Below are positions 1,304 to 63,998 of a stretch of 64,000 nt of DNA, in pieces (position 1 is the first letter of the stretch; every line of letters begins with the position of its first letter). The DNA is from a virus: IMG/VR virus record IMGVR_UViG_3300008108_000036; one strand, written 5' to 3'. The position numbers were made by a program, and so were the translations under genes. Under the pieces are notes generated by a model. That model did not search any database and had not been told where the DNA came from. It saw nothing but the letters and a program-made list of their open reading frames with translations.

Positions 1304-1585
1304 ATGTCTAAAAATAGTATAAACATTTCGTTAACTGATGAAGATTTTTCTACAGTTCTTTCTGCACTTTTATTTTCTTGCTCTGTGAATATCGTTTCGA
1401 ACACCAGCCAAGAATATCAGCAAAAGTTGTTTGAGTTAGCTAAACGACTAAAAGTATATAAACCGGACGTAAAAATTACTGATATACAATTTTTGAGAGA
1501 AGAAAATTATGAAGATGTTACGACCCAAGAATTATTGAAGGAGTTTGAACAAAATCTGGAAATTATATCTTTTGAAAATATTTAA
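1304..1585 (+). CDS. Hypothetical protein
   Basis: 93 aa ORF behind promoter, abuts queD. Confidence 0.7.
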   Translation: MSKNSINISLTDEDFSTVLSALLFSCSVNIVSNTSQEYQQKLFELAKRLKVYKPDVKITDIQFLREENYEDVTTQELLKEFEQNLEIISFENI

Positions 1586-2071
1586 ATGAAAAAATACACT
1601 TCAACTAAAGTAATCGAATTAGGCTCTTGTGCATTTAGACAATGGAAAGCTGAAGGAACGCACTGTAGATTTGTTCATGGGTATCGATTGATGGCTAAAT
1701 TTTGGTTTGAGTGCTCTAAGCTAGATCATCGGAATTGGGCAGTAAATTTTGGAGGATTAAAAGAACTTAAGCGAATGTTGCAACAACAATTCGACCACAC
1801 GTTGTGTATAGCTGTCGATGATCCTCTTTTAGCTAATTTTCAAGAACTACACAACCAAGGAGGATGCGATATACGAGTAATGGATGCAGTTGGGATTGAA
1901 AAAGTAGCTGAGTGGTGCTTTAAAACCGCAAGATTGTTTTTGGAGTCAAATGAAGAAACATATAAGCGTTGCTGGGTCTCTAAAGTTGAAGTATGGGAAC
2001 ATGAAGAAAATTCAGCAGTATATACAGAAATTGATGATCAACACGGAACAACCGTACGCGAGGAAATTTAA
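1586..2071 (+). CDS. queD: 6-carboxy-5,6,7,8-tetrahydropterin synthase
   Basis: HCRFVHGY, DHT, EK, WEHEENSA motifs; adjacent to queE. Confidence 0.9.
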   Translation: MKKYTSTKVIELGSCAFRQWKAEGTHCRFVHGYRLMAKFWFECSKLDHRNWAVNFGGLKELKRMLQQQFDHTLCIAVDDPLLANFQELHNQGGCDIRVMDAVGIEKVAEWCFKTARLFLESNEETYKRCWVSKVEVWEHEENSAVYTEIDDQHGTTVREEI

Positions 2072-2820
2072 TGACTAATAATTTTTTATTCTTATCTGAT
2101 GATAAAATCTTCTACACATTAGAAGGAGAAGGGGAATATATCGGACAACCTTCTGTTTTTATGCGTATGTCTATGTGCAATCTTACCTGTAAAGGTTTTG
2201 CTTCAGAAAATAGTCCAAATGGTTGTGATTCTTTTATTTCGTGGTCAGTAAAAAATAAAATGTCTTTTGAAGACATTTTTCAATTAATGGAAGAAAAAAA
2301 TTATATCGAGCATCTTCGAAATAATGCTATTTTTAAGCTAACTGGTGGAGAACCATTAATAAATCAAAAGCAACTTCTTAAATTTATTGAAGAATTTATT
2401 GGGCGATATAAATTTGTTCCGAGAATTGATTTTGAAACAAATGCTACATTAATTCCAGATGAACGTTGGATACGAGAATTTAAAGCTACGTTTACTACTT
2501 CTCCGAAACTTACTACTAATGGAGACCCAGAAGAAAAAACATACAAACCAGAGGCTTTGAAGTGGCACGTTAAACACAATTCTGGGTTTAAGTTCGTCAT
2601 TACTTCGGATAAAGACATCGAAGAAATTTGGAGAAAATATGTAAACGACGATAAAGGCATTAATGTCCCACTAAATCGAGTTTGGTTCATGCCTTGTTGT
2701 GGATCAAGAAAAGAACACATCGAAAGAGCTCCTGCTGTTGCTGAATATGCAAAAGCAATGCATGTTAACTTTAGCCCAAGAATGCATCTTCTAATTTGGG
2801 ACATGGCTTTAAAAGTTTGA
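2071..2820 (+). CDS. queE: 7-carboxy-7-deazaguanine synthase (radical SAM)
   Basis: FYTLEGEG, CNLTC-x(11)-CDS, TGGEPL, ETN, SPK, PRMHLLIW. Confidence 0.92.
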   Translation: MTNNFLFLSDDKIFYTLEGEGEYIGQPSVFMRMSMCNLTCKGFASENSPNGCDSFISWSVKNKMSFEDIFQLMEEKNYIEHLRNNAIFKLTGGEPLINQKQLLKFIEEFIGRYKFVPRIDFETNATLIPDERWIREFKATFTTSPKLTTNGDPEEKTYKPEALKWHVKHNSGFKFVITSDKDIEEIWRKYVNDDKGINVPLNRVWFMPCCGSRKEHIERAPAVAEYAKAMHVNFSPRMHLLIWDMALKV

Positions 2821-2850
2821 CATATTCATTAACAAGCGTAAATATACTCC

Positions 2851-3495
2851 ATGCGTATAGCTTTAATGGGTGCTCATTGTGTGGGCAAAACGACACTAAT
2901 AGAACAAATTCTTAAACAATGGCCTATGTATAAAAGGCCTTCTAAGACTTATAGAGAAATTATTAAAGAAAAACAATTATCAATAAACAAACAAGGAACT
3001 AAAGATTCTCAAAAAATAATATTAAATGCTTTAATAGACGAATTGCAAACAGCCAGTACGTCAGACGATAAATTTATTATTTTTGATAGATGCCCTATTG
3101 ATAACGTTGTATATACGTTATGGCATCATGCAAAAGGGACAGAGGGATTTACTTCGGATTTTGTAATGGATTGTAAAACAATTGCAGCTTTCTCACTTAA
3201 ACATATAGATGTAATTTTTTATGTTCCGGCTAGGCCTGAAATTCCGTTAACTCCTAGAGAGGGAAGAGAAGTTGATCCTATTTTTAGAGAAGAGATTGAC
3301 AATATATTTGATTCGATGGTTTCTTCATATGAGAAAAACACAGGAGCGTTTTTTCCTTTAGAAGATTGTCCCGCTGTCATTAGGCTCGACGGACCTCCAG
3401 ACATGAGATTGCCTCAAATGAAACTATACATTAAAGATAGTGGGATTGGATATGGTGAAGAAGACGGCAGCTTAATAGACACTTCAGCAATCTAA
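2851..3495 (+). CDS. P-loop (AAA_28/NadR-type) nucleotide kinase-like protein
   Basis: Walker A GAHCVGKT, FDRCPID. Confidence 0.75.
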   Translation: MRIALMGAHCVGKTTLIEQILKQWPMYKRPSKTYREIIKEKQLSINKQGTKDSQKIILNALIDELQTASTSDDKFIIFDRCPIDNVVYTLWHHAKGTEGFTSDFVMDCKTIAAFSLKHIDVIFYVPARPEIPLTPREGREVDPIFREEIDNIFDSMVSSYEKNTGAFFPLEDCPAVIRLDGPPDMRLPQMKLYIKDSGIGYGEEDGSLIDTSAI

Positions 3496-4361: not shown

Positions 4362-4362
4362 T

Positions 4363-4626
4363 TTACTTTTTTCTGCGTTTTTTTCTGCTTTTTTTCATTC
4401 CATAACGAGTTATTACTCCTCCGTATATACCATAAGGAATTCTAGCATCATCTTTGGCGTAATTGTCACCACTAAAAGCTGTAGATGTTGAATCTATTCC
4501 ATCGCCAAACGACGAACTTGTTGCACCCCCCTCAGAATCCTCATTAATGCTGTTCGTTTTGGTATAACAATCGTTCGATATAAAAGAAAGAGCTGCATTA
4601 TACGCTTCTTTAAAGCTTTTTGTCAT
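4363..4626 (-). CDS. Small late protein, possible head protein
   Basis: Minus-strand TAAATA at 4633-4638; SFKE...INE leader; basic C-terminus. Confidence 0.6.
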   Translation of the reverse strand: MTKSFKEAYNAALSFISNDCYTKTNSINEDSEGGATSSSFGDGIDSTSTAFSGDNYAKDDARIPYGIYGGVITRYGMKKSRKKRRKK

Positions 4627-4648
4627 AAATAATATTTAATAAAAATAT

Positions 4649-4765
4649 ATGAAATTTGACAAATTAGTATCTATGATAATGGAAAAATGTTGGAAGGGAT
4701 ACCAACAAAAGGGAGTAAAGAAGAAGGGCAATAAGGTTGTCCCTAATTGCGTAAAGAAAAAATAA
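4649..4765 (+). CDS. 38-aa CWKGY...VPNCV-motif small protein (absent from the ORF track)
   Basis: Translates MKFDKLVSMIMEKCWKGYQQKGVKKKGNKVVPNCVKKK*; TAAATA at 4626-4631; motif recalled from T4-like phage proteins. Confidence 0.75.
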   Translation: MKFDKLVSMIMEKCWKGYQQKGVKKKGNKVVPNCVKKK

Positions 4766-4771
4766 TAAAGA

Positions 4772-5299
4772 CTAATACCAAGACGGCTTAGAGCGCTTTG
4801 TCCAAGTTGCAAAAGCTTTATCTAACCGAATGTATTGTTTGTATTTGTCTATAGTAGAAAGTTGATCAAAACCAGCAATTTTTCTGCACTTAGATTCTAA
4901 GTTAATAGCGATTGCAAAGGGAGTCAATTCGCTTTTTTTACAATGCTCTGTTTTATCTACATTGCTTTTGCACCATTCTATAAATGATTTGGTAAAATGC
5001 TCGTTAGAAGTTGTCCATCGATAGGTTCGCTCATTAAACATTTCTAAAGCATGATCACAAAGCCACAAAAAGTTTGATGTTGACTCTCTTGTCCATACAG
5101 CACATGGATGATTGTAATACCCTTTGCCAGATTTACGTGGGGATCCTTTTTTAGTCAAAGGAGCTGACAGTAATGTTTGATTAGAAAAGCAATGTTGAAG
5201 CAAAATTGCTGATTCAATTTGCATTTTAGACCTACAATGCTGATCACAAAGCTCTTGAGCTGATATCACTGGATCGTTATTGGTGCAAAAGATATTCAT
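4772..5299 (-). CDS. Pyrimidine-dimer DNA glycosylase/endonuclease V-family protein
   Basis: MNIF..DP..SAQ.LCD.H..KM..ESA, NHPCAVW, YKQY..K..FATW. Confidence 0.75.
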   Translation of the reverse strand: MNIFCTNNDPVISAQELCDQHCRSKMQIESAILLQHCFSNQTLLSAPLTKKGSPRKSGKGYYNHPCAVWTRESTSNFLWLCDHALEMFNERTYRWTTSNEHFTKSFIEWCKSNVDKTEHCKKSELTPFAIAINLESKCRKIAGFDQLSTIDKYKQYIRLDKAFATWTKRSKPSWY

Positions 5300-27444: not shown

Positions 27445-29325
27445 ATGAGTAAAATAATTGGTATTGATTTAGGAACTACTAATTCGTGCGTTGCTGTAAT
27501 AGATGGAGATCAACCTCTAGTTTTAGAAAATTCAGAAGGATCTAGAACCACTCCGTCTGTGGTAGCATTTACTAAAAGCGGAGAGAGACTAGTTGGACAA
27601 TCAGCAAAAAGACAAGCTATAACAAACCCTTCAAACACCATATATTCTGTGAAAAGGTTTATGGGAATGAAATATGATGAAGTGTCCGAAGAGATTAAAA
27701 AGGTTCCCTACAAAGTAGTTAGAGCACAAAATGGAGACGCTCATATTCAGGTTGAAGTTAATAACGAAACAAAGACGTATTCTCCTCCAGAAATTTCAGC
27801 AATGATTTTAGCAAAATTAAAGTCAGACGCAGAAGCCAAGCTGGGAGAAACCATTACAGAGGCAGTAATAACCGTACCTGCATATTTTAATGATTCTCAA
27901 CGCAGCGCTACAAAGGATGCTGGAAAAATAGCTGGGTTAGACGTTAAAAGAATTATTAATGAACCAACAGCAGCCTCATTGGCTTATGGGTTGGAAAGTA
28001 AAAAGGACGAAAAAATCGCCGTGTATGATTTAGGAGGAGGAACTTTTGATATTTCCGCTTTAGAAATATCTGATGGAGTATTTGAAGTTTGTTCAACTAA
28101 TGGTGACACACATTTAGGAGGAGATGACTGGGATAATAAAATAGTTGAATGGATTATTTCTGAATTTAAGATAGACTCAGGAATTGATCTGTCTAAGCAA
28201 TCCGATGCAATTCAACGCATCAAAGAAGAAAGCGAAAGAGCTAAAATTGCCCTATCGTCAGCACAAGAATATGAAATCAATCTTCCATTTATTACTGCCG
28301 ACTCAACTGGACCAAAACACATACAAAAAAAGTTAACTCGTTCTAAATTGGAACAAATTACAGATGATCTGTTTGAAAGAACTATTCAGCCCGTAAAAAA
28401 TTGTTTGAAGGATGCTAAATGGATGGTTGGAGATATTGATGAATTAGTATTGGTCGGAGGAATGACTCGGATGCCTAAAGTCATAGATACAGCTAGAAGT
28501 TTAGTTAGCAAAGAGCCTCACAAAGGGGTAAATCCCGATGAAGTCGTTGCAATTGGTGCCGCAATTCAAGGAGGTGTATTAAAGGGAGATGTTAAAGACG
28601 TACTCTTGCTGGATGTTACTCCTTTAACTCTTGCAATAGAAACAGCAGGAGGAGTTGCTACGGCGATGATTCCAAGAAACACAACAATTCCTACAAAGAA
28701 GACGAATACTTTTTCTACTTACTCTGACAACCAACCTGGAGTTGAAATAAAAGTACTGCAAGGAGAAAGACCTTTAAGTAGAGATAACAAAAGTTTAGGA
28801 ACCTTTCACTTGGACGGAATTCCTCCAGCACCAAGAGGCGTACCTCAAATTGAAGTTACGTTTGACATCGATGCAAATGGAATCCTAAACGTGTCTGCAA
28901 AAGAGCTTGGTTCAGGCAAAGAGCAAAAAATTTCGATAACAGGCTCTAGTGGCTTATCTAAAGATGAGGTAGACAGATTGCAAAAAGAAGCAGAGCAATA
29001 TGCTGAAGAAGATAAAAAAGCAAAAGAAACTATAGAAATTAGAAATAACGCAGATTCCACAGTGTATCAATGCGAAAAGCAACTTACTGAAATATCCGAA
29101 AAAATCGATGAAGCAACAAAAAGCTCGATTAGTAGTTTAATTGAAAATGCTAAAAATTCAATTAAAGGAGATGATTTAGAAGCAATAAAAAAATCATGCG
29201 ACGAACTTCAACACGCTATGCAAGAAGCTGTAAAAAAAGCGTACGAACAAACAAATTCTTCAGACACTAAAACACAACAAGCAAAAGATCCGAATGTAAT
29301 TGATGCAGATTTTGAGGTTGAATAA
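27445..29325 (+). CDS. dnaK: Hsp70 chaperone DnaK
   Basis: [44 protein letters not shown]. Confidence 0.98.
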
Positions 29326-29379
29326 ACCTCTCTTAAACAATGAAACACCAAACAACACAAAACAAACTAAATTAAACAT

Positions 29380-31351
<1,972 letters not shown>

Positions 31352-31407: not shown

Positions 31408-31464
31408 ACCAACAATAGATTTTGTAGGTTGATTAAGTTGTATTTTAATTTACTATATAAAGAT

Positions 31465-32493
31465 ATGCAGAAAGACCAACAACAAGCGATGAAGCTATCC
31501 GAACTAACTGACTACTCTGTCCATATGCCTCACTTAAAATTTGAATATGACAGAGATTTTTATCCAGAAGATAATGAATTACCAGATCCTCAGGTAAATC
31601 CTGTAATTCCAGGAGCAAGGGTTCCTATTAATAAAGTTGGTGTATCCGGAGTAGATTTGCCTGTAAACTTTATTAGAAGAGACGGTAGCACAGAAAAGCT
31701 AACCACCTCAGTTTCTTTGTACGGTTCGCTTGACAGTCCTAACTCAAAAGGCCTGAATTTGAGTCGCTTTCCTATCGTAATGCACGAACAAATTGCAAAT
31801 CATTTGTCGATTGAGGGAATCAAGCTGATATTAGATGAGCTTCAAAAAAAGCAAGGATCTAAAGATATATATTGCAAAATGAAGTTTAAATACCCATGGA
31901 CTCAAAAAGCTTTGAGAACCAGAAAAGAATTACCAAGCGATGCTCCAACGGATCAAATCTTTAAAGTCGTAGATGGCGTAAATCTCAGTCACGAAAAGTT
32001 AGAAGGATACATTTTTTATGATTGTGTACTTGAAGGCCAAAAACACAATTTGGAATACAAATTCTTTTTGACTGTTAACTATGTTTACAGTTCAACTTGT
32101 CCATGCTCTTTTGAATTAGCTCAAGATGCTATTACTAGAAGAGGTAGAGCAGCAAACGGTCACAGTCAAAGATCAATAGCTAAGATTACGGTTCAATTTG
32201 ATCCTAATAAACCAATTTTTATAGAAGACGTCGTTGAGATGGCTAGACAACAAGTACCAACAGAAGTAGTGGTTATTTGTAAGCGTAGAGACGAACAAGC
32301 GTTTGCTGAGCTAAATGGTTCAAATCTTTTATTCACCGAAGATGCAATTAGATTGTTGTACGAGGGTTTAGATAATTTGTACGTCGAAAAAAGAATTTCA
32401 GATTTTAGTGTTGTTACTGACCACATTGAGTCTTTACATCCTTGGTCAGCAACAGCAGTTATAAGAAAAGGAATACCAGGAGGATTACATTAA
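31465..32493 (+). CDS. folE2: GTP cyclohydrolase IB (FolE2); start probably ATG 31465
   Basis: LPDPQ, INKVGV, KGLNLSR, SSTCPCS, HSQRS, KRRDE, EDAIR, ESLH; promoter TTGATT-N16-TACTAT at 31429-31456. Confidence 0.9.
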   Translation: MQKDQQQAMKLSELTDYSVHMPHLKFEYDRDFYPEDNELPDPQVNPVIPGARVPINKVGVSGVDLPVNFIRRDGSTEKLTTSVSLYGSLDSPNSKGLNLSRFPIVMHEQIANHLSIEGIKLILDELQKKQGSKDIYCKMKFKYPWTQKALRTRKELPSDAPTDQIFKVVDGVNLSHEKLEGYIFYDCVLEGQKHNLEYKFFLTVNYVYSSTCPCSFELAQDAITRRGRAANGHSQRSIAKITVQFDPNKPIFIEDVVEMARQQVPTEVVVICKRRDEQAFAELNGSNLLFTEDAIRLLYEGLDNLYVEKRISDFSVVTDHIESLHPWSATAVIRKGIPGGLH

Positions 32494-55973: not shown

Positions 55974-56356
55974 GTGTTCATAAACCTAGCCTTGTGATCT
56001 GCTGACATCGTATTTAAGCATTCATAAAAATACTTCCAAAAACTAGCAGGATCAGGAGACGTTTTAATTGTTGCAATTAAATCCACATCATCACAATTTA
56101 TCATTCTCCAATTTTGCATGAAAATATCCCATGCTACTAATAAATTTTTTGAAGCAGGACTATATTTTAAATGATTATTAGGACGAATGAATTTCAAAAT
56201 ACGTTTTCCGGGAGTAGATAACAGTAAACGCTTATCTAATGTACACAACATTCTTCTATACTCATTAAACCCTTCTTTGCTCTTGCGACGACGGAAACGT
56301 AGTTCTGCAGCATTCGTTCCCAATAATAACATTAAAGATGTTCGGCCTATTCTCAT
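55970..56356 (-). CDS. SH3/WYL_2-like conserved phage protein (tentative)
   Basis: ELRFRRR..RRMLCTL..VAWDI...WRMI. Confidence 0.55.
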   Translation of the reverse strand: MRIGRTSLMLLLGTNAAELRFRRRKSKEGFNEYRRMLCTLDKRLLLSTPGKRILKFIRPNNHLKYSPASKNLLVAWDIFMQNWRMINCDDVDLIATIKTSPDPASFWKYFYECLNTMSADHKARFMNT

Positions 56357-56730
56357 TTAGAATTTGAACAAATACCGAAAATTCTCTCTTCATTTAAAAA
56401 GATAACAGTCTTTCCACCTTTTTGTATACCTATAATTCCTTTATCCCCAGGAAAAATAACATGATGTCCCGCTTTAACTTGTTTAGCATTTGGGCCGACA
56501 AGAAGGACTTTACCCACTCTCCATGCCTTTTTATCTACTACTTCATTAGGCAAAATGATGCCATTTCTGATTAAAGACTTTCCGTCTGTTGCAACGTCTG
56601 CATATTCTGCCATAATAACATCTCCAAGAAGTTCTGTAACCTCAAAATCTTCTGGTAGAGGGCAGTCTTGGTAGGGATCTAAATCAGCAATTCCGTTATT
56701 TTCTCGTGGTAGTACTGGTAATGAGCTCAT
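56353..56730 (-). CDS. Divergent phage-type GroES-like co-chaperonin
   Basis: DVIMAE, NGIILP, GKVLLVGPNAKQVKAG..VIFP, LNEERIFG. Confidence 0.8.
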   Translation of the reverse strand: MSSLPVLPRENNGIADLDPYQDCPLPEDFEVTELLGDVIMAEYADVATDGKSLIRNGIILPNEVVDKKAWRVGKVLLVGPNAKQVKAGHHVIFPGDKGIIGIQKGGKTVIFLNEERIFGICSNSK

Positions 56731-56812: not shown

Positions 56813-58090
56813 ATGTCCATTGAGCCGTTTTTTACGTTTTTTCAGTCTTCTTCTAATAAACGACAGAAATTAAATGAAGGGGGAAATGTTAAGATTGAAA
56901 CAAAATCTGGAGAAAGTGTTTTAGCAGACAGAATAGATTTAACTGTTGTATCTCGCATGGAATTAAGCAAAAAGCTATTATCATTTTTTCATAAATTAAA
57001 TGAAGTGTTTGAGCAAAAATTCAATATCAAGATTTGGACGAACCCTTCCATATTAGATAATGGACAGGCTTTTAATGGTTCTTCTGAACATTTTTTTAAT
57101 GCAGCAATTTCAGATAAAGAATTTAAACAATATAAAACAAAAGTAGGGGACATAGATATAACAGTTCCTGAAGACAGAAAGGAAATGCTACATCAATTGC
57201 TTCAGGAGTTAGAAGGTAAAAAATTAACAAGTTCGGCTAGATTCGTTGGTTCCAAACAAGACACTGTCGGTGAAGGACATCAGATTAATAGTTTAGTGAA
57301 CATAGATAATAAATTGAATGTTCAAATAGATTTCGAATTTTCAAGCTATGATGAAGAAGTTCCTAGCAAATTTGCAAAATTCAGTCACAGTTCAGACTGG
57401 GAAGACATTAAAGCAGGGTTTAAAGGAGTTTTACACAAATATTTATTACAATCAATTGCAAGTATTTCCGAAGTTAAAACAGAAGATCAAGCAGTGTTAC
57501 TCACTCCAGCTTCTTCTGCAAATAATATAAAAATAACTAAAACTTTTCCGGACCGAGGCTTAACTTTTAAAAAATTTTCCGTAGGAAGAGGTTTGAGAAC
57601 AGATGCTTATTCTACAGTACTAAAAGACGATGGAACTCCACTGCAAGTAGATGGACGAACAGCATATAAAGTTAAGCCTCCAACAGAATCTACATATATA
57701 CAAGATCCTGAACAAATAGCAAAAACAATTTTTGGACCTAAGTTTACGCGAGAAGAGTTGCCTAAACTCAATTCTTTTGTAGGAATTATAGATTTATGCA
57801 ATCAGTACTTTGATGAAAAAGATAAGAAAAGATTACTAAAAGATTTTAGTAGAAGATTATTTGGACAAGGCTCCCAAGGATTAGAAAGAGATAATCCCAA
57901 AGGGGATTTTGATATTAAGCGAGCAGGATATGAAAAACTTAAACAAGACCTTAAACTATCTGAGTTTTCTAATTTACCTGAAACGTACGAAATTTTAATG
58001 CAAGAGGATGATGCCAAGTTGACTCCTTTTCAAATTAGTGTTAAAAATTACTACAAGCAATACGGAACAAGAAGTAGAACTTCAAAATGA
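56813..58090 (+). CDS. Pol-beta-superfamily nucleotidyltransferase-like head protein
   Basis: NGSS...GDIDI...QIDFE; leader ending LNE-GGN; TAAATA at 56797-56802. Confidence 0.7.
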   Translation: MSIEPFFTFFQSSSNKRQKLNEGGNVKIETKSGESVLADRIDLTVVSRMELSKKLLSFFHKLNEVFEQKFNIKIWTNPSILDNGQAFNGSSEHFFNAAISDKEFKQYKTKVGDIDITVPEDRKEMLHQLLQELEGKKLTSSARFVGSKQDTVGEGHQINSLVNIDNKLNVQIDFEFSSYDEEVPSKFAKFSHSSDWEDIKAGFKGVLHKYLLQSIASISEVKTEDQAVLLTPASSANNIKITKTFPDRGLTFKKFSVGRGLRTDAYSTVLKDDGTPLQVDGRTAYKVKPPTESTYIQDPEQIAKTIFGPKFTREELPKLNSFVGIIDLCNQYFDEKDKKRLLKDFSRRLFGQGSQGLERDNPKGDFDIKRAGYEKLKQDLKLSEFSNLPETYEILMQEDDAKLTPFQISVKNYYKQYGTRSRTSK

Positions 58091-60054
58091 AACAATTTTT
58101 TTTAGTTATAGGAGGTCCAGGATCTGGTAAAAATTTTTACGTAAATCACTTTATACCTCGACCCACTACAATAGTTGACATTGACGAAATTAAATCCCAA
58201 ATCGGAACTACAGAAGCAATATCAAATTTAAAAGAAATCTTAACAAATAAATTTAAAGAAGGCATAGAAACAATTGCCCATCCATCTTTAGGAGCTAAAG
58301 CAGTAGTCAATGTAAATAAACTAAAATTAGCTAAAATGTTTGGTTACAAAACAATTGTAGTTTTTGTAGAAAACAATTTAAAACAAGCAATTAAGAATAT
58401 TAATATGAGAGTTGCTAACGGAGGACATAAAGTCCCAATCGAAAAGGTCAAACAATCTTACAAAGAAATCGACAATGCTTTTAAAGAAACTAAATCGTTA
58501 GGATCAGATGTTATAGATGAATTTATTTTATATAAATCTAATTCCAATGTAAGTGAGTCATTTTCGAGCTTTTTTGTTAAGCAAACCAAACGTTTGATTA
58601 AAGAATCTGAAATGCTCGATATTTCTATTCTTAATATAGATAAAGCAAAGAAACAAATAGTAGGCTTGCTAGATATTCCTGTAATAGTTACAGAAAAAAC
58701 AGATGGAGTTAAAATTACAATAGTAAGAAATAATAACGACAAGTCTGATAACTGGAAAGACAATTGGATTGTATCTTATAAAGGAAATGTAATACATACA
58801 GAAGATTTCTCAGGGGTAGATCCAGAAACAGAAAAGCAATCGTTGTCTTCTTCTATTGGTGTCACACAGTTTAAAAAAATTTTTAATATTTTAGAACAAG
58901 CAAATTTAAAAAAAAGCATAAAAGAAATTCCTAAAAATACAGAGTTGTTTTTTGAATTCTTAATGAGAAAGCCAACCTTGACAAGACAATATAAAAAATA
59001 CCATGAGCTTATATTGCTTGCATCTTCTCCTACAAGTTATAAAGAAGAATTTGGAAGATTAACAACATCTTCTAATGAATTTAACACAGCAGATAGAGAT
59101 CGTTTTGCAAAAATTTTAAACGTACAAGTCCCGACAATTTTATTTAAAGGAACTTTGCGAAAATTGGTTGATTCCGAAAATCCAGATGAAATTATAAGGC
59201 AACTTAAAGACAAATTTTTAAACGTAGAATCATCTTTCGGAGGAACGATGGAAGGAGTTGTATTAGAGTTTGATAACGGTCAATTTTTAAAAATATTACA
59301 AGCGGATCAACATGATAAACAAATTCGCTCACAGATTAAAATAAGCCACGGGCCAAACAATCCAGAAAAATACTATCAAGATATTAGAAAAATCGCTGAG
59401 CTTGCATTGAAAGACATAAGTCCGATTAGAGATATTAAGAAATCTTTAGCGGAATTATCGCATTGGGTTTTTTCAGATACTAGTGCAACATTGTTTAAAG
59501 ATTTGGACCCTAATAAAACCGCTTTAAACGCAAAAGACGATGTGTTTTTAACAGCTAAAATGTTACTACTAAGAAAGCTTCCAGGTAATAACAATGCTTT
59601 ATTTTTAGGAAGGTTTAGTCCTCTGACAATTGCTCACTATCAAATAATAAAAGATGCAATTAAAAAATACGATCATGTTTGTGTTAATATTGTTAAGGCA
59701 AAACAAGATAGCCGCAATCCATTTCCACTAGAATTGCAAGAAGAAATGTTGACTAAATGTTTTGGTAACTCAATTGAAATTACTATTTCAGAAACAGGCA
59801 ATCTCGTTAGAATTTTGCAAAAACCTTCTAAAGTTATTAGTGTAGTATTGGCTGGATCTGACAGATTTGAGGATTACGCCAATCAATTGAAAATAAATGC
59901 TCCGGATGTTAAAGTGGTCGAAATACCAAGAGTAGACGAAGTTTCTGGAACATCCGTCAGAAAAGCTTTAACTGAAAACGATTTTAACAAATTTAAATTA
60001 AACACTCCTTCAGAAATTTGGGATATGTTTAACGAATTACGCAAGTTCGTTTAA
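58087..60054 (+). CDS. Tri-domain protein: zeta/AAA_33-like kinase, ATP-dependent ligase-like domain, cytidylyltransferase-like domain
   Basis: GGPGSGK...GGHKVP; TEKTDG, FFEF, EGVVL, LKI; GRFSPLTIAH, NPF, GSDR, SGTSVR. Confidence 0.75.
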   Translation: MKQFFLVIGGPGSGKNFYVNHFIPRPTTIVDIDEIKSQIGTTEAISNLKEILTNKFKEGIETIAHPSLGAKAVVNVNKLKLAKMFGYKTIVVFVENNLKQAIKNINMRVANGGHKVPIEKVKQSYKEIDNAFKETKSLGSDVIDEFILYKSNSNVSESFSSFFVKQTKRLIKESEMLDISILNIDKAKKQIVGLLDIPVIVTEKTDGVKITIVRNNNDKSDNWKDNWIVSYKGNVIHTEDFSGVDPETEKQSLSSSIGVTQFKKIFNILEQANLKKSIKEIPKNTELFFEFLMRKPTLTRQYKKYHELILLASSPTSYKEEFGRLTTSSNEFNTADRDRFAKILNVQVPTILFKGTLRKLVDSENPDEIIRQLKDKFLNVESSFGGTMEGVVLEFDNGQFLKILQADQHDKQIRSQIKISHGPNNPEKYYQDIRKIAELALKDISPIRDIKKSLAELSHWVFSDTSATLFKDLDPNKTALNAKDDVFLTAKMLLLRKLPGNNNALFLGRFSPLTIAHYQIIKDAIKKYDHVCVNIVKAKQDSRNPFPLELQEEMLTKCFGNSIEITISETGNLVRILQKPSKVISVVLAGSDRFEDYANQLKINAPDVKVVEIPRVDEVSGTSVRKALTENDFNKFKLNTPSEIWDMFNELRKFV

Positions 60055-60405
60055 GCTATTTTGCAGCTCTATAATTTCTCGTTTAGACAACTCCAAATTA
60101 GAAGACATCACATCAAGTTTCGTTAGATTAATATCTTCTTCTGGTTTTTCTTTTTGTTCTTTAATCTTTTTGAAATATATTATTTTTGGAATAGAAGCTG
60201 TTTTCGGAAACAAAGCCAACATTGTTTTGTAATGGAGCTCTTTATTCTCTAATAATACTTTACTATTAAAATGGTTTAAAGTTTCTGCAACTGTAGGATT
60301 AATAAAGCTTAACCACCGACTAGTTAAAAACGGTACATATTCGTCTAATAATAAATCTCCTTTTTTATCTACTAAAATATCTTTTAAATAATCAAAAATT
60401 GTCAC
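60037..60405 (-). CDS. Clamp loader small subunit gp62-like
   Basis: IFDYLKDI...YVPFLTSRWLS...YFKK...ELSKRE pattern. Confidence 0.65.
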   Translation of the reverse strand: MTIFDYLKDILVDKKGDLLLDEYVPFLTSRWLSFINPTVAETLNHFNSKVLLENKELHYKTMLALFPKTASIPKIIYFKKIKEQKEKPEEDINLTKLDVMSSNLELSKREIIELQNSLNELA

Positions 60406-60928
60406 GTTGGGATTCTAAAAATATACTTTTAGTTAGATAATGAAATGCTCCAATTGCTTTTTCTTGAAATTGTTTTAGTTTATCTTCTTCTAGCGAAATT
60501 GAATATAGCAAGTCAGAATTGTGAGGACAAAGAGAAAATATGTTATGAAATAAAGTTGAATTTTTTACATGGTTAGCAACCGATATGGAGCTTTGACGTT
60601 TTTCTATAAAGACTATACTTTCATCTACATAACAACTTTTACCAACAAGCTCGCATAGAATAGAGCCAATTTGAGCTGTAAACAATCTTTGAAAACATAC
60701 TCCTCCGAACATAGCAACGTTAGGAAGATCAGCAGCAAATACTAATACTTTCGAAAGCGTTTTTTCTCCAACAATTAGAGGAGCAACAAACGACAAAATA
60801 TTACCATAAGGTGATGCGTCATTACCTAAAAACAAATGAGACCAACGTCTTTTAGTCAGAACCCAGTCATATACTTCATGTTCATTCAACAACACTTTAG
60901 ATTCTTCAATACTTAATATCATACGCAA
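60392..60928 (-). CDS. DUF366-like (BPL/LplA-fold) protein, tentative
   Basis: GNILSFVAP, FQRLF, SISVA pattern recalled from DUF366. Confidence 0.45.
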   Translation of the reverse strand: MRMILSIEESKVLLNEHEVYDWVLTKRRWSHLFLGNDASPYGNILSFVAPLIVGEKTLSKVLVFAADLPNVAMFGGVCFQRLFTAQIGSILCELVGKSCYVDESIVFIEKRQSSISVANHVKNSTLFHNIFSLCPHNSDLLYSISLEEDKLKQFQEKAIGAFHYLTKSIFLESQRDNF

Positions 60929-61590
60929 AACATTTGTTTAAATTTAACATTAGCTACTTTCCAGCTAGTTGCTAACATCGAATCACCCAATCCATAATGC
61001 ACAGCTCGTATTGGAAGAACACCACACGTAACTTTTTTCTCATTTGCACTTAAACAAAAACAAATATCGTAAAAATGAAATCCAAAAGCTTCATTAAAAT
61101 ACAATTCGTGTTCAACCATTTCTGTCACTTTGCATGAGATAAATAATCCATCTATTATTAGAGCTCTCGAATCCGTTGGTCCAAACTTTGTTGTAAATGT
61201 TTTTCCGTCACAGATATGAGCAACTTCTCCAACAAAATCTTCCGGTTTACTGGCTAAATGCCACGCTAAATGCTCTGCATTTTTATCAAAACTTTTCGTT
61301 CCTGCAAGTCCAGTAATAGAATAAGGACTACTCATTAATTTTTCATACAAAAACAAATCCTCTAAAATCACATCATCATGAACAAACAACACAGTCCAAT
61401 CAAGATATAAAGGATTGTTTAAAATTTTGTTATAGCACTCAGACAATCCTAATTCATTATTTTTAAATACGTGACTTGTAATATTTGTGTTATTGTCGAG
61501 TTGTTTTTTTAAGCTCGAATATATGGGTCTGCGTTCAAACTCGCTATCGGTTTTAGCTTTAGTGCATACTACTATTAGTAATTGATTCAT
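60919..61590 (-). CDS. GT-A glycosyltransferase-like protein
   Basis: GLSECYN, FVHDDV, GLAG, IDGLF, FHFYD. Confidence 0.8.
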   Translation of the reverse strand: MNQLLIVVCTKAKTDSEFERRPIYSSLKKQLDNNTNITSHVFKNNELGLSECYNKILNNPLYLDWTVLFVHDDVILEDLFLYEKLMSSPYSITGLAGTKSFDKNAEHLAWHLASKPEDFVGEVAHICDGKTFTTKFGPTDSRALIIDGLFISCKVTEMVEHELYFNEAFGFHFYDICFCLSANEKKVTCGVLPIRAVHYGLGDSMLATSWKVANVKFKQMFCV

Positions 61591-62378
61591 ATGTTTTGGT
61601 ATTTAGTCTTTAGGTACTCTATATTCAATCTAGCTAATGTTTGTTCATCTCTTGTTAGCGTTTTATTAAAATATTCATTTGTTGTAGGAATTCTGGTAGT
61701 TATTCCATCGCTAAATTTTATTCCGTTGATTGCAGCCAATATTGTATAACAACTATCAGAGCTTCTAATATTAGATATTTTATTATCTAAATAATAATCG
61801 AATTCGTTATGTTCTCCCATTCCTAACAAATGTAAAGGTTTATTTACAAGATTTTTATTGTTTAGCTCTTGAACGCACTGGTTTCTAGATAATCCTATCA
61901 ATACATCATTAGTAGCATTATTCCAACATTTAGGAACAGCTATTTTGCTCAATCCAATGCAGGTAACATAAGGACAAGATTGCATTGCAGCAAAACATTC
62001 TAACCATTCATATTTCGTCTTTCCTTGAGGGCAAGCAAAAAGAGATGTATGCCTCAACATACCATTGCTTTCTATTTTTTTTACAAATGAATAAAAATTA
62101 TTCAAAGTAAATTTTTTATCAAAAAGAACGTCAGGAGCAATTACTTCATTTGGTTTAAGCTCGGTTACTACTTCTAATAATACATCTTCAGTGACCAAAC
62201 TCTCTTCTGCAGCTCCATTATCTAATGTTATAAAGGCATCAGGTACATTTTTTCTTAGCTTTAAAAAATAATTTCTATATTCTTTATCGTTAATATAATG
62301 ATGACACAAAGCAAAGTATCTATCTCCATAGTCCATCATGTTTAAATGTTTGTTAGGAGGAATGCAATAGAATTTCAT
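61587..62378 (-). CDS. dpdA: DpdA-like DNA guanine transglycosylase (TGT fold)
   Basis: LDNGAAE, APDV, PQG, HLLG, RSSDS; deazaguanine genes in the same genome. Confidence 0.75.
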   Translation of the reverse strand: MKFYCIPPNKHLNMMDYGDRYFALCHHYINDKEYRNYFLKLRKNVPDAFITLDNGAAEESLVTEDVLLEVVTELKPNEVIAPDVLFDKKFTLNNFYSFVKKIESNGMLRHTSLFACPQGKTKYEWLECFAAMQSCPYVTCIGLSKIAVPKCWNNATNDVLIGLSRNQCVQELNNKNLVNKPLHLLGMGEHNEFDYYLDNKISNIRSSDSCYTILAAINGIKFSDGITTRIPTTNEYFNKTLTRDEQTLARLNIEYLKTKYQNI

Positions 62379-62803
62379 AATGATTTTTGTAATATGTATT
62401 GTTTAACTTGAATTATTCCTAAATTAATATCTCCAAGTTCAGCTTCTTCAAATGTTTGCGAATCTCCTTCTCGTGCTCTATTTTCGTAACGCTTTTTTCT
62501 TTCATTTTTTGGACATTCCACCCAAAGCATAGTTGAATTCGGAAAAGCTTCTAAAATTTCTTTTTGTCTAACGCCAGAAACTACTAAATCCGTATTTTCT
62601 ACCAATGAACTCTGAAGTGCTAAGCATTGAATAATTTGATTGGCTAAATGTTTAGAATCTTGAAGTGATTTTCTGTCTGTCGTATTTTTCAAATGGCGAA
62701 CAACGTCTCCTACTTCAATGTAAGTTCCTTTGCATATTTGAGCTAAAGCTTTTGAATAAAGCGTTTTACCTGAACAAAGTTGCCCACAGACAAAAGATAT
62801 CAT
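62375..62803 (-). CDS. Small P-loop NMP-kinase-like protein
   Basis: GQLCSGKT, GDVVR, VVSGVRQ, R..RY..R. Confidence 0.75.
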   Translation of the reverse strand: MISFVCGQLCSGKTLYSKALAQICKGTYIEVGDVVRHLKNTTDRKSLQDSKHLANQIIQCLALQSSLVENTDLVVSGVRQKEILEAFPNSTMLWVECPKNERKKRYENRAREGDSQTFEEAELGDINLGIIQVKQYILQKSL

Positions 62804-63144
62804 TTGTATACTTTAGCTCCGTTTTCGTTATCTTCAAGCACTTCTACGGTCTCACAATCAAAGTTGCTTAATAATTCTTCTGCAATCATTTCACAGGATT
62901 TCGATCCAAGCTCTCCGGGCTTACCGTACTTTTGCTCAAGATATTGTTGAACTTGTCGTTTAAATAAAATAATCTCAACATCTCTGTCGTCATGTGCTAC
63001 TCGCTTTTCTAATCGAATGTGAAAAATATGTCTGTGTCGATCAAACAGAAAGTGTATTTCTGGGTTATTAGGAAGAGCCTCTTTAACTCCTTGCCAATTA
63101 TGAAATGCTTCGAATTGAAGATTAATAACAACGGTTGTAGTCAT
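62800..63144 (-). CDS. QueD-paralogous T-fold protein, DpdL-like (putative CDG decarboxylase)
   Basis: FEAFHNW, LFDRHRHIF (LxxxHRHxF), SCEMIA, EDNENGA. Confidence 0.7.
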   Translation of the reverse strand: MTTTVVINLQFEAFHNWQGVKEALPNNPEIHFLFDRHRHIFHIRLEKRVAHDDRDVEIILFKRQVQQYLEQKYGKPGELGSKSCEMIAEELLSNFDCETVEVLEDNENGAKVYK

Positions 63145-63150
63145 TTTTTC

Positions 63151-63178
63151 AATCTACTATGGAAACTTTAAAATTCAA
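63151..63178 (-). promoter_or_regulatory. Early promoter (leaderless) of the dpdL-dpdA operon
   Basis: Minus strand TTGAAT-N16-TAGATT, ATG 6 nt later. Confidence 0.65.
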
Positions 63179-63191
63179 CATTTTGGTATAA

Positions 63192-63231
63192 AACAAAAGC
63201 CTCTTTGTTTTTATGCAAAGAGGCTTTTGTT
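63192..63231. terminator. 16-bp inverted repeat, probably a bidirectional terminator
   Basis: AACAAAAGCCTCTTTG-N8-CAAAGAGGCTTTTGTT. Confidence 0.8.
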
Positions 63232-63244: not shown

Positions 63245-63478
63245 TTAAGCTTTTACCGCAGCAAATCGGCCAAGTTCATCTCGAACGTTATAAAAACGCT
63301 CACGAAGAACTGCACTATTTGTTCGGTCCAAAAAACCGATAAACTCATAGCGACTAGGGTTAATTTTGCGTTGAACCATTTTGGTCTTTTCTGCAACAGT
63401 AAGACTAGAATGGATTGTGTGTTTGCCTGTAATAGCCTGAATAGGCTTGATTCGTGTATGTGTTAGTGATGTATTCAT
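63245..63478 (-). CDS. Small basic early protein, monocistronic
   Basis: Promoter TTGACA(63515-63510)-N16-GAATCT; terminator downstream; RDELGRF motif. Confidence 0.65.
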   Translation of the reverse strand: MNTSLTHTRIKPIQAITGKHTIHSSLTVAEKTKMVQRKINPSRYEFIGFLDRTNSAVLRERFYNVRDELGRFAAVKA

Positions 63479-63515: not shown

Positions 63516-63998
63516 CTAATAATTAATTTCGTTTCTAGTATTAAAAAAGTCTTCAATATATTGGCTATAACGTTTTCCTGACGAGCTTAATTGTATTTGT
63601 CCGCCAGGCAAAAGTTTGAGGTCCGTTGATACATCGAATTTATACTTAGTGAATAAGTCCATTCTTGAATTATATTTTCGCGTTTTTAAATTTCCGTGAT
63701 ATCTGTGATATATAGTTCCAGGCACATATCCAATTTCAACATCCTTAAACTTATCGCAAAAATCAAAAAAAGGCTGACCATAATGTTTATAAATAGGGTG
63801 ATTTTTATTTTGTCTAATTGCTTCTACTATTACACAGTCTCCTCCTCCTATAATGCCTCTTTCAAATAATTTACCAAATTTATTAAAAAATGTTCTATTA
63901 ATAGCCCAAGCTTGACCAGGATGCATTGCAGCTCCGTTTTTTGGACCTTTTCCTAAAGCTCCACAACAAAAGCTAATCGTTCCAGATTTTTTTTTGTC
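63516..63998 (-). CDS. Glycosyltransferase-like protein, C-terminal part (runs off the window)
   Basis: HPGQAWA, IIGGGD, GTIYHRYHG, Y..R; frame open to the edge. Confidence 0.6.
   Translation of the reverse strand, partial: DKKKSGTISFCCGALGKGPKNGAAMHPGQAWAINRTFFNKFGKLFERGIIGGGDCVIVEAIRQNKNHPIYKHYGQPFFDFCDKFKDVEIGYVPGTIYHRYHGNLKTRKYNSRMDLFTKYKFDVSTDLKLLPGGQIQLSSSGKRYSQYIEDFFNTRNEINY

What the first reader, a model, noticed from the sequence alone, without database searches (positions are those of the whole stretch)
60037..63178. Coupled operon dpdL-like / kinase / dpdA / glycosyltransferase / DUF366-like / gp62: a possible new deazaguanine DNA hypermodification
Seen: six minus-strand genes with overlapping junctions (mostly ATGA) behind one early promoter. 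Known: DpdA transglycosylases insert 7-deazaguanines into phage DNA, and DpdL (a QueD paralog whose signature I recall as LxxxHRHxF, here LFDRHRHIF) was proposed to decarboxylate CDG to 7-deazaguanine. The described pathways I know do not need an NMP-kinase-like gene between dpdL and dpdA, or a GT-A enzyme and a DUF366-like protein directly after dpdA. Inference: the phage makes dDG/dCDG and may decorate it further (glycosylation, or ligase-type activation of the carboxyl), or run a nucleotide-level salvage step. The link to a clamp-loader subunit hints at coupling to replication.
Basis: partly seen in the sequence, partly recalled or inferred. Interest (0 to 1): 0.88.

Follow-up and report, generated by a model that had tools for sequence, protein, structure and literature searches.

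The report
Phage 7-deazaguanine DNA modification operon
An uncultured T4-like water phage carries the three-gene set known from phage phiST, whose DNA has every G replaced by 7-deazaguanine, placed in front of a resident sugar-transferase/DUF366/clamp-loader block. The small kinase-like gene in that set, ignored so far, sits next to every DpdA3 gene examined and may be a missing part of the pathway.

Summary
The six overlapping minus-strand genes are real and conserved. The first three are a known module. DpdL is 43% identical to phiST DpdL and keeps the LxxxHRHxF motif. A P-loop NMP-kinase-like protein (K1) is the homolog of phiST CGPG_00066. DpdA3 is 38% identical to phiST DpdA3. With folE2, queD and queE in the same window, and no queC or queF in a complete relative, the predicted product is 2'-deoxy-7-deazaguanine, as measured in phiST.

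Two points go beyond the 2023 description. First, every DpdA3 gene I examined (eight lineages or contexts) has an adjacent NMP-kinase-like gene, K1 or an AAA_28-type K2. Most clusters outside the T4-like clade also carry nucleotide hydrolases or phosphoribosyltransferases. This reopens the question of whether replacement happens before or after replication.

Second, GT-A, DUF366 and gp62-like form a resident block. In sister T4-like phages the same block is preceded by queC-gat or by glycan genes. The link of GT and DUF366 to dpdA is therefore mainly positional, and no extra hypermodification is shown.

An "early promoter" and a coupling to replication are not supported. The scan had already noted queD-queE with a second kinase on this genome.

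The parts
62800..63144 (-). dpdL: QueD-paralog, proposed CDG decarboxylase (114 aa)
   Evidence: 43% identity to phiST DpdL CGPG_00067 (E 4e-25). phrog_17812 E 3e-28. The motif L-F-D-R-H-R-H-I-F is conserved in relatives, in contrast to C-x-x-x-H-G-Y in the phage's own QueD.
62375..62803 (-). K1: P-loop NMP-kinase-like protein (142 aa), homolog of phiST CGPG_00066
   Evidence: Pfam AAA_18 39.3 bits, above the cut-off of 29.4. 30-33% identity to phiST CGPG_00066 and MA9V-3 XQU63046. Profile against PDB: Sulfolobus AdkA-like SSO1041 at E 2e-6, UMP/CMP kinase at 0.02. Invariant GxxCSGK, G-D/S-I/V-V-R, G-x-R-Q and R-Y-x-x-R...D.
61587..62378 (-). dpdA3: 7-deazaguanine transglycosylase of subfamily DpdA3 (263 aa)
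   Evidence: 37.6% identity over 258 aa to phiST CGPG_00065 (E 4e-56). That protein is named DpdA3 in PMC10516641. phrog_20335 E 5e-56. Groups with phiST, MA9V-3 and G007 at 100/99 support.
60919..61590 (-). GT-A fold glycosyltransferase-like protein, PF13712 family (223 aa)
   Evidence: AF2 model pLDDT 95. Foldseek top hits are the UDP-binding majastridin 2qgi/2nxv (TM 0.70), then GT-A transferases. Invariant H-D-D (DxD) among 34 relatives. Relatives pass the PF13712 cut-off.
60392..60922 (-). compact DUF366 family protein (176 aa from the ATG at 60922)
   Evidence: Aligns end to end with true PF04017 proteins. AF2 model pLDDT 94.5. Foldseek top hit is 2ddz (PH0223, TM 0.72), then biotin and lipoate protein ligases.
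60037..60405 (-). gp62-like protein (probable clamp-loader small subunit, 122 aa)
   Evidence: A profile of 20 relatives has T4 gp62 chains as its three best PDB hits, but only at E 0.015-0.018. It follows DUF366 in 80 of 80 loci.
63192..63231 (-). intrinsic-terminator hairpin ending the upstream gene orf77
   Evidence: 16-bp stem, dG -22.9 kcal/mol, z -8.96, followed by a U-run. Hairpins at the same place in relatives.
63145..63191 (-). short gap that must hold the operon's promoter; class unknown
   Evidence: No sigma-70 match above threshold. A TATAnT-like box lies 6-10 nt before the ATG in most relatives; the window has TAGATT.
63245..63478 (-). orf77: conserved small gene always upstream of dpdL in this clade
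   Evidence: 49-79% identity, same position in relatives. No family match.
1586..2071 (+). queD (supplies CPH4)
   Evidence: 42% identity to phiST QueD. Best NCBIfam hit is QueD.
2071..2820 (+). queE (makes CDG)
   Evidence: Best NCBIfam hits are QueE models. Weak match to phiST QueE.
2851..3495 (+). K2: AAA_28-type P-loop kinase next to queE
   Evidence: Pfam AAA_28 E 1.7e-14. Homologous to the kinases next to DpdA3 in CP220 (gp057), immuto_2-6A (gp203), G001 and G002.
31429..32493 (+). folE2 (GTP cyclohydrolase IB)
   Evidence: Pfam GCHY-1 E 1e-52.

Best explanation
The operon is a composite of two parts. Part one (dpdL-K1-dpdA3) is the 7-deazaguanine (dDG) cassette first seen in Cellulophaga phage phiST. 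In this T4-like clade it occupies the slot that holds queC-gat in sister phages. Part two (GT-A, DUF366, gp62-like) is a resident block of the T4-like backbone.

Proposed working: FolE2, QueD and QueE turn GTP into 7-carboxy-7-deazaguanine. DpdL removes the carboxyl to give 7-deazaguanine, as proposed in the literature but never shown. DpdA3 exchanges guanine for this base. The phage DNA therefore probably carries dDG in place of most or all dG, which protects it from restriction.

K1 is inferred to be a required third component. Most likely it is a nucleoside-monophosphate kinase that phosphorylates a 7-deazaguanine (deoxy)nucleotide, so that the base enters DNA at least partly through the dNTP pool. 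That would explain the complete replacement typical of DpdA3 phages.

GT-A and DUF366 are active-looking enzymes expressed with the cassette. Their substrate is unknown, and they are probably not needed to make dDG.

Shown here: gene identities, folds and synteny. Inferred: all chemistry in this phage.
For: Identity of the trio with the phiST module. phiST DNA has 302,000 dDG per 10^6 nucleotides and no dG (PMC10516641).

Precursor genes are in the window. The complete relative G003 has no queC, gat, queF, formyltransferase or GNAT.

Cassette nature: the DpdA3 tree separates {window clade, phiST, MA9V-3, G007} from {T4-like types I and III, immuto, CP220} at 100/99. The same backbone slot holds queC-gat or glycan genes in sisters.

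Kinase link: the K1 tblastn search hits exactly the six phage records that the DpdA3 search hits. K1 lies between DpdL and DpdA3 in four lineages. A K2 kinase lies within two genes downstream of DpdA3 in CP220, immuto_2-6A, G001 and G002. phiST, MA9V-3 and G007 have K1 but no K2. NMP-kinase motifs and PDB hits.

Nucleotide enzymes in or near DpdA3 clusters: MazG, PRA-PH-like, HD, DCD-like and PRTase.

The authors could not obtain dDG from dpdL plus dpdA alone and say other enzymes may be needed. A modified-dGTP route was proposed earlier for Campylobacter phages (PMC6884629).
Against: There is no chemistry on this uncultured phage. DpdL activity has never been demonstrated. The TGT fold of this DpdA3 was not modelled here, and Pfam and PDB profile searches give no TGT hit.

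A phiST-like fragment (L133) keeps K1 beside the DNA polymerase without dpdL or dpdA3, so K1 can exist without the cassette.

The complete relative G003 shows no MazG, MazG-like, PRA-PH or HD dNTPase and no PRTase. A dGTP-excluding step, expected for a pool-level route, is therefore not visible in this clade.

The 2023 paper argues for post-replicative insertion.
Confidence: 0.62

Rival explanations
1. K1 (and K2 in other phages) is not a nucleotide kinase but an ATPase helper of DpdA3. It would be analogous to bacterial DpdB, whose ATP hydrolysis is needed for DpdA to insert preQ0 into DNA. Replacement would then be entirely post-replicative.
For: DpdA needs the ATPase DpdB in vitro (PMC10164549). 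The strict adjacency of a P-loop gene to every DpdA3 fits a protein partner as well as a pathway enzyme. No dGTPase or PRTase is detectable in G003.
Against: DpdB is a ParB-like NTPase, unrelated in fold to K1 and K2. K1 keeps motifs typical of the NMP-acceptor site and LID of NMP kinases, and its nearest solved relatives are adenylate-kinase-like and UMP/CMP kinases. Other DpdA3 clusters carry PRTases and dNTP hydrolases.
Confidence: 0.22
2. GT-A and DUF366 act on the deazaguanine base or nucleotide and produce a further decorated, still undescribed DNA base. Possible routes are a sugar adduct or an adenylate-mediated amide of CDG.
For: ATGA coupling of dpdA3/GT and GT/DUF366. Both look like functional enzymes: invariant DxD, high-confidence GT-A and ligase-like folds. 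In 44 of 45 DUF366 loci with at least 6 kb of upstream flank, deazaguanine genes lie within the locus. No ThyA-type hydroxymethylase exists that could give another acceptor base.
Against: The block is equally conserved behind queC-gat, which makes a different base. The GT is replaced by a glycan cluster in type III. DUF366 is lost in four relatives that keep the cassette. Neither gene accompanies dpdA3 in phiST, MA9V-3, CP220 or immuto. dDG has no hydroxyl or carboxyl to decorate. DUF366 lacks the glycine-rich and lysine motifs of biotin ligases on sequence inspection. All loci belong to one clade with conserved synteny, so the co-occurrence is not independent evidence.
Confidence: 0.12
3. K1 is a general phage (d)NMP kinase for nucleotide supply that merely travels with replication genes. 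Its position between dpdL and dpdA3 would have no functional meaning.
For: L133 has K1 next to the split Pol III alpha without any deazaguanine gene. In phiST the module lies beside the polymerase genes.
Against: In the T4-like clade K1 occurs only inside the cassette, although that clade already has K2. K1 was found only in DpdA3-bearing cultured phages. The order dpdL-K1-dpdA3 is kept in four lineages at 28-33% K1 identity.
Confidence: 0.15

Closest known systems
dDG module of Cellulophaga phage phiST (CGPG_00068-00065: MazG-like, DpdL, CGPG_00066, DpdA3; NAR 2023, PMC10516641)
   Same: Same three genes in the same order (DpdL 43%, K1 30%, DpdA3 38% identity). Same precursor set (FolE, QueD, QueE) without QueC. 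The same DpdA3 subclade.
   Different: The host genome is a roughly 200-kb T4-like phage, not a 79-kb siphovirus-like phage. There is no MazG-like gene. It has FolE2 instead of FolE. It carries an extra AAA_28 kinase next to queE. GT-A and DUF366 are translationally coupled downstream. The product has not been measured here.
[quoted passage not shown]
   Same: A DpdA3-family enzyme with a P-loop NMP-kinase-like gene within two genes downstream. Complete replacement of G was reported for these phages.
   Different: They belong to the other DpdA3 subclade and use the K2 kinase family instead of K1. They have other tailoring enzymes (formyltransferase, QueF) and no DpdL.
Bacterial Dpd system, DpdA with the ATPase DpdB (PMC10164549)
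   Same: A TGT-family DNA transglycosylase that needs a nucleotide-hydrolysing partner.
   Different: DpdB is ParB-like, whereas K1 is adenylate-kinase-like. bDpdA modifies under 0.1% of G at specific sites, and its substrate is preQ0.
T4 hydroxymethylcytosine pathway (dCTPase gp56, dCMP hydroxymethylase gp42, dNMP kinase gp1, DNA glucosyltransferases); from general knowledge
   Same: It is the logical template for the pool-level reading: exclude the normal dNTP, make the modified dNMP, use a dedicated kinase, then a sugar transferase.
   Different: No hydroxymethylase and no recognisable dGTPase are present here. The T4 glucosyltransferases are GT-B, whereas this GT is GT-A. No acceptor hydroxyl exists on dDG.
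PH0223 of Pyrococcus horikoshii (PDB 2DDZ, Pfam DUF366) and biotin/lipoate protein ligases
   Same: Same fold (TM 0.72 to 2ddz, 0.5-0.56 to the ligases). Sequence continuity with PF04017 proteins.
   Different: The phage protein is a shortened version lacking two insertions. The ligase signature motifs were not found. No function is known for any DUF366 member (no literature found).
Majastridin (Rhodobacter blasticus ATPase-operon ORF6, PDB 2QGI/2NXV) and Pfam PF13712
   Same: GT-A fold with a DxD motif; the closest solved structure binds UDP.
   Different: 15% identity. The acceptor is unknown for both.

Membership tests
DpdL (proposed CDG decarboxylase) | Sequence homology to phiST DpdL (QueD/T-fold paralog) | tested here: met
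   43% identity, E 4e-25. phrog_17812 E 3e-28.
DpdL (proposed CDG decarboxylase) | Signature LxxxHRHxF in place of QueD's CxxxHGH (PMC10516641) | tested here: met
   L-F-D-R-H-R-H-I-F in the window. The motif is kept in all 10 DpdL rows and differs in the two QueD rows.
DpdL (proposed CDG decarboxylase) | Genome encodes FolE, QueD, QueE and a DpdA but no QueC | tested here: met
   folE2, queD and queE are in the window. There is no QueC, Gat or QueF in the window or in the complete relative G003.
DpdL (proposed CDG decarboxylase) | Decarboxylation of CDG to 7-deazaguanine | not testable with these tools
   Not shown for any member. Heterologous tests failed.
DpdA3 transglycosylase | Homology to phiST CGPG_00065 and the Campylobacter-phage DpdA3 proteins | tested here: met
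   37.6% identity, E 4e-56 to phiST. The profile reaches the G001 and G002 homologs at E 1e-16 to 1e-21, and these are 47-50% identical to the immuto and CP220 proteins. Tree.
DpdA3 transglycosylase | TGT (TIM-barrel) fold with catalytic aspartates | tested here: inconclusive
   No Pfam TGT hit; DUF6610 at E 0.005 only. No TGT chain in the PDB profile search. An Atlas neighbour cluster has PF23859 DpdA on 17% of its members. The fold rests on the published HHpred result for the phiST ortholog (98.8%).
DpdA3 transglycosylase | Complete replacement of dG in virion DNA | not testable with these tools
P-loop NMP kinase (adenylate-kinase-like) | Walker A loop and membership of an NMP-kinase-type Pfam family | tested here: met
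   GxxCSGK is invariant. AAA_18 scores 39.3 bits against a cut-off of 29.4.
P-loop NMP kinase (adenylate-kinase-like) | NMP-site and LID arginines; similarity to solved NMP kinases | tested here: met
   Invariant R36, R79, R105, R109 and D114. 3lw7/3h0k AdkA-like at E 2e-6, 1qf9 UMP/CMP kinase at 0.02. Assigning these residues to specific sites rests on general knowledge of adenylate kinase.
P-loop NMP kinase (adenylate-kinase-like) | Phosphoryl transfer to a nucleoside monophosphate; substrate identity | not testable with these tools
   Needs an enzyme assay.
GT-A glycosyltransferase (Pfam PF13712) | GT-A fold | tested here: met
   Model pLDDT 95. 2qgi TM 0.70, E 6e-10; many GT-A enzymes below it.
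GT-A glycosyltransferase (Pfam PF13712) | DxD metal and nucleotide-sugar motif | tested here: met
   H71-D72-D73 are invariant in 34 sequences.
GT-A glycosyltransferase (Pfam PF13712) | Score above the Pfam gathering threshold | tested here: inconclusive
   The window protein scores 23.5 bits, below the cut-off of 27. The homolog in L065 scores 52.1 bits, and many relatives carry PF13712.
DUF366 (PF04017) | Sequence membership | tested here: met
   The window protein scores 17.7 bits, below the cut-off of 29.9. It aligns over its full length with PF04017-positive proteins, which match its profile at E 1e-23 to 1e-25. Syntenic homologs score 67-72 bits.
DUF366 (PF04017) | Fold of PH0223 (2DDZ) | tested here: met
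   TM 0.72, E 1e-8.
Biotin/lipoate protein ligase | Glycine-rich ATP/biotin loop and catalytic lysine (recalled from BirA) | tested here: not met
   No such motif appears among the invariant or near-invariant columns of 70 relatives (Y18, F45, F77, R79, L80, F160; G40, E65, P67, C76, G86). There is fold likeness only.
T4 gp62 clamp-loader small subunit | Sequence similarity to T4 gp62 | tested here: inconclusive
   The top three PDB hits of the profile are gp62 chains, at E 0.015-0.018. No Pfam, PHROG or NCBIfam hit.
T4 gp62 clamp-loader small subunit | Adjacent to gp44 as in T4 | tested here: not met
   Its neighbours are DUF366 upstream and a convergent kinase/RNA-ligase/NMNAT-like gene downstream.

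The most novel reading that the evidence does not exclude
DpdA3-type systems, including this one, work at the level of the nucleotide pool. A dedicated NMP-kinase-like enzyme (K1 or K2) phosphorylates a 7-deazaguanine (deoxy)nucleotide made by base exchange or phosphoribosyl transfer, and the polymerase then writes the base into DNA. This would be why only DpdA3 phages reach 100% replacement. The kinase would be the 'unknown enzyme' missing from the failed reconstitutions.
Probability: 0.3. Interest if true: 0.85.

Novelty: new variant of a known kind. Interest (0 to 1): 0.6.

Why it matters
7-deazaguanine replacement is one of the few cases where a phage rewrites a whole base of its DNA. The DpdA3 route, the only one that reaches 100%, has resisted reconstitution (PMC10516641). 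Its mode, before or after replication, is unsettled.

An NMP-kinase-like gene accompanies every DpdA3 gene examined. In the dDG subgroup it sits between dpdL and dpdA3, in phages as different as phiST and a T4-like myovirus. This gives a concrete, cheap experiment: add the kinase to the reconstitution.

The finding also extends dDG-type DNA to an abundant, uncultured freshwater T4-like lineage. It shows deazaguanine 'tailoring' genes being swapped as cassettes at one genomic slot. And it flags a widespread GT-A/DUF366 pair of unknown function that always lies beside these genes.

Tried and rejected
- The 289-aa minus-strand gene upstream of queC in type I loci, tested as the missing DpdA. It starts with the head-cargo N-tag and is not a DpdA.
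- DNA similarity to cultured phages: none. The GT has no tblastn match in cultured phages.
- DUF366 has one tblastn match, in 'Microcystis phage MaAM05', in a bacterial-looking context that taught nothing.
- Literature on DUF366/PH0223: nothing relevant.
The control genomes show it in two methanogens, but no context was available.
- GT as a hydroxymethyl-pyrimidine glycosyltransferase: no ThyA-type enzyme in complete relatives.
- Search for a dGTP-excluding enzyme in the clade (MazG, MazG-like, PRA-PH, HD): none. Search for a PRTase in G003: none.
- PDB profile searches for the GT, DUF366 and DpdA3: no useful sequence hit.
- NCBIfam: nothing for the six proteins.
- ESM Atlas for DUF366: scores below 0.9 and a poor model.
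Gene contexts of the metagenomic homologs and any expression data could therefore not be obtained.

Full report
**1. Observation**

Six co-directional minus-strand ORFs occupy 63144..60037. Read from the sequence, four junctions are ATGA overlaps: dpdL/K1, K1/dpdA3, dpdA3/GT and GT/DUF366-like. For the last one the likely start is the ATG at 60922, six bases inside the TTG start listed mechanically. The fifth junction is a 14-nt overlap (GTG...TGA). Upstream, a 16-bp hairpin with a U-tail (63192-63231, dG -22.9 kcal/mol, z -9) ends the preceding small gene. The operon therefore starts its own transcript in the 47-nt gap before dpdL.

A sigma-70-type promoter is not detectable above chance. Relatives share only a TATAnT-like box 6-10 nt before the ATG. 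'One early promoter' is therefore unproven.

**2. Identity of the first three genes**

Pfam alone is nearly blind to them, but PHROGs and tblastn are not.

- The 263-aa protein matches phrog_20335 (E 5e-56). It is 37.6% identical over 258 residues to CGPG_00065 of Cellulophaga phage phiST and to a protein of Chryseobacterium phage MA9V-3.
- The 114-aa protein is 43% identical to phiST CGPG_00067.
- The 142-aa P-loop protein is 30-33% identical to phiST CGPG_00066 and MA9V-3 XQU63046.

PMC10516641 names CGPG_00065 DpdA3 and CGPG_00067 DpdL, the proposed CDG decarboxylase with signature LxxxHRHxF. It measured 302,000 dDG per 10^6 nucleotides and no dG in phiST DNA. The window protein carries L-F-D-R-H-R-H-I-F, conserved in all relatives and distinct from the phage's own QueD.

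The window also encodes queD, queE and folE2. A complete 217-kb relative with terminal repeats (G003) has the same set. It has no queC, gat, queF, formyltransferase or GNAT. The predicted end product is therefore 7-deazaguanine, as in phiST.

**3. The kinase-like gene**

The 2023 paper set CGPG_00066 aside because other deazaguanine phages lacked it, and the word 'kinase' does not occur in its text. Here its family (K1) is found between dpdL and dpdA3 in four separate lineages:

- the T4-like clade, about 20 contigs;
- the phiST group;
- MA9V-3;
- the 79.6-kb contig G007 (L132).

In the cultured-phage collection, the K1 search hits exactly the six records that the DpdA3 search hits.

K1 passes the AAA_18 threshold. 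It has invariant GxxCSGK, G-D/S-I/V-V-R, G-x-R-Q and R-Y-x-x-R...D motifs. Its best solved relatives are an adenylate-kinase-like protein of Sulfolobus (E 2e-6) and UMP/CMP kinase.

The other DpdA3 phages have a different kinase family, K2 (AAA_28-like), at the equivalent place:

- CP220 gp057 lies directly after DpdA3.
- immuto_2-6A gp203 lies after DpdA3 and the formyltransferase.
- T4-like type III (G001) has DpdA3-like, GNAT, K2, QueF.
- T4-like type I (G002) has DNA polymerase, DpdA3-like, formyltransferase, K2.

K2 is also the kinase next to queE in this window. phiST, MA9V-3 and G007 have K1 but no K2. Thus every DpdA3 gene examined, in eight lineages or contexts, has an NMP-kinase-like neighbour.

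Many of these clusters also hold nucleotide enzymes:

- MazG-like in phiST;
- PRA-PH/MazG-type 'hydrolase' and a PRTase in immuto;
- an HD plus AAA_33 fusion in CP220;
- dCTP-deaminase/dUTPase-like proteins in MA9V-3 and G007, and a PRTase in G007;
- PRTases elsewhere in phiST and G001.

**4. What this suggests, and its limits**

All three DpdA3 phages analysed chemically show complete replacement. [quoted passage not shown] A modified-dGTP route had been proposed for the Campylobacter phages.

The recurrent kinase, hydrolase and PRTase genes fit a route that passes through the nucleotide pool, with K1 as the kinase for the deaza-nucleotide.

Three points speak against it.

- The complete relative G003 has no recognisable MazG, MazG-like, PRA-PH or HD enzyme and no PRTase. 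It has only a DCD/dUTPase-like gene far from the cassette.
- A phiST-like fragment (L133) keeps K1 beside a split Pol III alpha with no dpdL or dpdA3 on its 29 kb.
- A P-loop partner could instead be an ATPase helper, since bacterial DpdA needs the ATPase DpdB.

I rank the kinase reading first because K1 keeps acceptor-site and LID motifs and resembles true NMP kinases. It remains an inference.

**5. GT-A, DUF366 and gp62-like**

The GT model (pLDDT 95) is a GT-A fold. It is closest to the UDP-binding majastridin (TM 0.70) and has an invariant H-D-D motif. Relatives pass the PF13712 threshold.

The DUF366-like protein aligns end to end with true PF04017 proteins. Its model (pLDDT 94.5) matches PH0223/2DDZ (TM 0.72), then biotin and lipoate protein ligases. 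The ligase motifs are not among its conserved columns.

The last gene is probably gp62: T4 gp62 chains are the three best PDB hits, at E 0.015-0.018.

Searching viral contigs with the DUF366 profile gave 148 loci, of which 80 were kept.

- gp62-like follows DUF366 in 80 of 80 loci, and the PF13712 GT precedes it in 70 of 80.
- Downstream, the same backbone genes follow (o152, a Cpn10-like gene, o110, a helicase). In the window these lie at 56.7-55.6 kb, after an inserted pair of plus-strand genes.

What stands upstream of the block differs between clades:

- dpdL-K1-dpdA3 in this clade ('type II');
- queC-gat plus two small genes in most others ('type I');
- three GT2 genes, a methyltransferase and UDP-galactopyranose mutase without the PF13712 GT in 'type III'.

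DUF366 is missing in four type II contigs, where the GT abuts gp62 (L008, L009, L011, L122). Neither GT nor DUF366 lies near dpdA3 in phiST, MA9V-3, CP220 or immuto.

So GT-DUF366-gp62 is a resident block and dpdL-K1-dpdA3 is an exchangeable cassette in front of it.

The DpdA3 tree agrees. The window clade groups with phiST, MA9V-3 and G007. The DpdA3-like genes of its T4-like sisters, located elsewhere in their genomes, group with immuto and CP220. The split has 100/99 support (unrooted, with G007 on a long branch).

Deazaguanine genes lie within 44 of 45 DUF366 loci that have at least 6 kb of upstream flank. All these loci belong to one syntenic clade, however, so this is weak evidence for a shared function.

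A role of the GT in glycosylating hydroxymethyl-pyrimidines is excluded by the lack of a ThyA-type enzyme. What the GT and DUF366 do remains open. A further decoration of the base is possible but unsupported.

**6. Comparison and novelty**

The core is a new member of the phiST-type dDG system, in a very different and abundant phage lineage. Hundreds of metagenomic homologs of K1, GT and DUF366 exist.

The following are new relative to the published description:

- the conserved kinase;
- the split of DpdA3 into a DpdL/K1 subclade and a K2 subclade;
- the cassette swap at one slot;
- the translational coupling to a GT-A/DUF366 pair.

I file it as a new variant of a known kind.

**7. Tools not available**

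Noticed in passing
L095 (G001:C1:21642-25277), ORFs 1447-2259, 2256-2801, 2798-3358, 3366-3635: A complete T4-like genome has DpdA3-like, a GNAT acetyltransferase, a K2 kinase and QueF in a row. This suggests an N-acetylated preQ1-type DNA base, which is not among the eight described derivatives.
   Followed up: partly
L096 (G002:C1:63477-67085): DNA polymerase, then DpdA3-like, an 80-aa ORF, a formyltransferase (DpdN-like) and a K2 kinase, as in Flavobacterium phage immuto_2-6A. The same phage also has queC-gat next to GT-DUF366, so two different tailoring sets sit in one genome.
   Followed up: partly
L132 (G007), 339-5289: A fourth dDG-type lineage: queE, folE, a type I phosphoribosyltransferase, a dCTP-deaminase/dUTPase-like gene and a histone-deacetylase-family gene, then dpdL-K1-dpdA3.
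   Followed up: partly
L002 4647-5528 (Chryseobacterium phage MA9V-3, XQU63047): DpdL is fused to an N-terminal domain of about 180 aa with no Pfam match.
   Followed up: no
L133 3974-8131: A phiST-like contig keeps the K1 kinase next to a split Pol III alpha (PHP/NTPase part and finger/HhH part as two ORFs), but has no dpdL or dpdA3 on its 29 kb.
   Followed up: partly
L044 3553-7985: In type III phages the slot before DUF366-gp62 holds three GT2 glycosyltransferases, a CmcI/TylF-like methyltransferase and UDP-galactopyranose mutase. This is a phage-borne glycan (galactofuranose?) cluster.
   Followed up: no
window 58087-60054 (+): A 655-aa protein combines an N-terminal P-loop kinase-like part, an RNA-ligase domain and a C-terminal cytidylyltransferase/NMNAT-like domain. 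It is convergent with gp62-like and inserted, with its upstream 425-aa neighbour, into the backbone of only some relatives.
   Followed up: no
window 27445-31351 (+): Phage-encoded DnaK (Hsp70, E 2e-258) and GroEL-type chaperonin in the G+C-richer stretch. A Cpn10-like gene lies at 56353-56730.
   Followed up: no
window 31429-32493 versus G003 64.8 kb: This phage has GTP cyclohydrolase FolE2, whereas its complete relative G003 has a type I FolE in the corresponding part of the genome. This is a non-orthologous replacement within the clade.
   Followed up: no
L009 439-1123; L011 5158-7570; L017 5415-6099: Insertions of 0.7-2.4 kb between dpdL and K1 in some relatives break the ATGA coupling. 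Their content was not examined; they may be homing endonucleases. A SegE-like GIY-YIG gene lies at window 3945-4361.
   Followed up: no
G003 versus G001 (whole records): The two complete T4-like genomes show a complementary pattern. G003 has the PF13712 GT but no PRTase; G001 has a PRTase but no PF13712 GT. With n = 2 this is only a lead.
   Followed up: no
window 63516-63998 (-), runs off the window: The partial gene upstream of orf77 has a homolog at the same place in L007. It has no family match. It looked glycosyltransferase-like by eye only.
   Followed up: no
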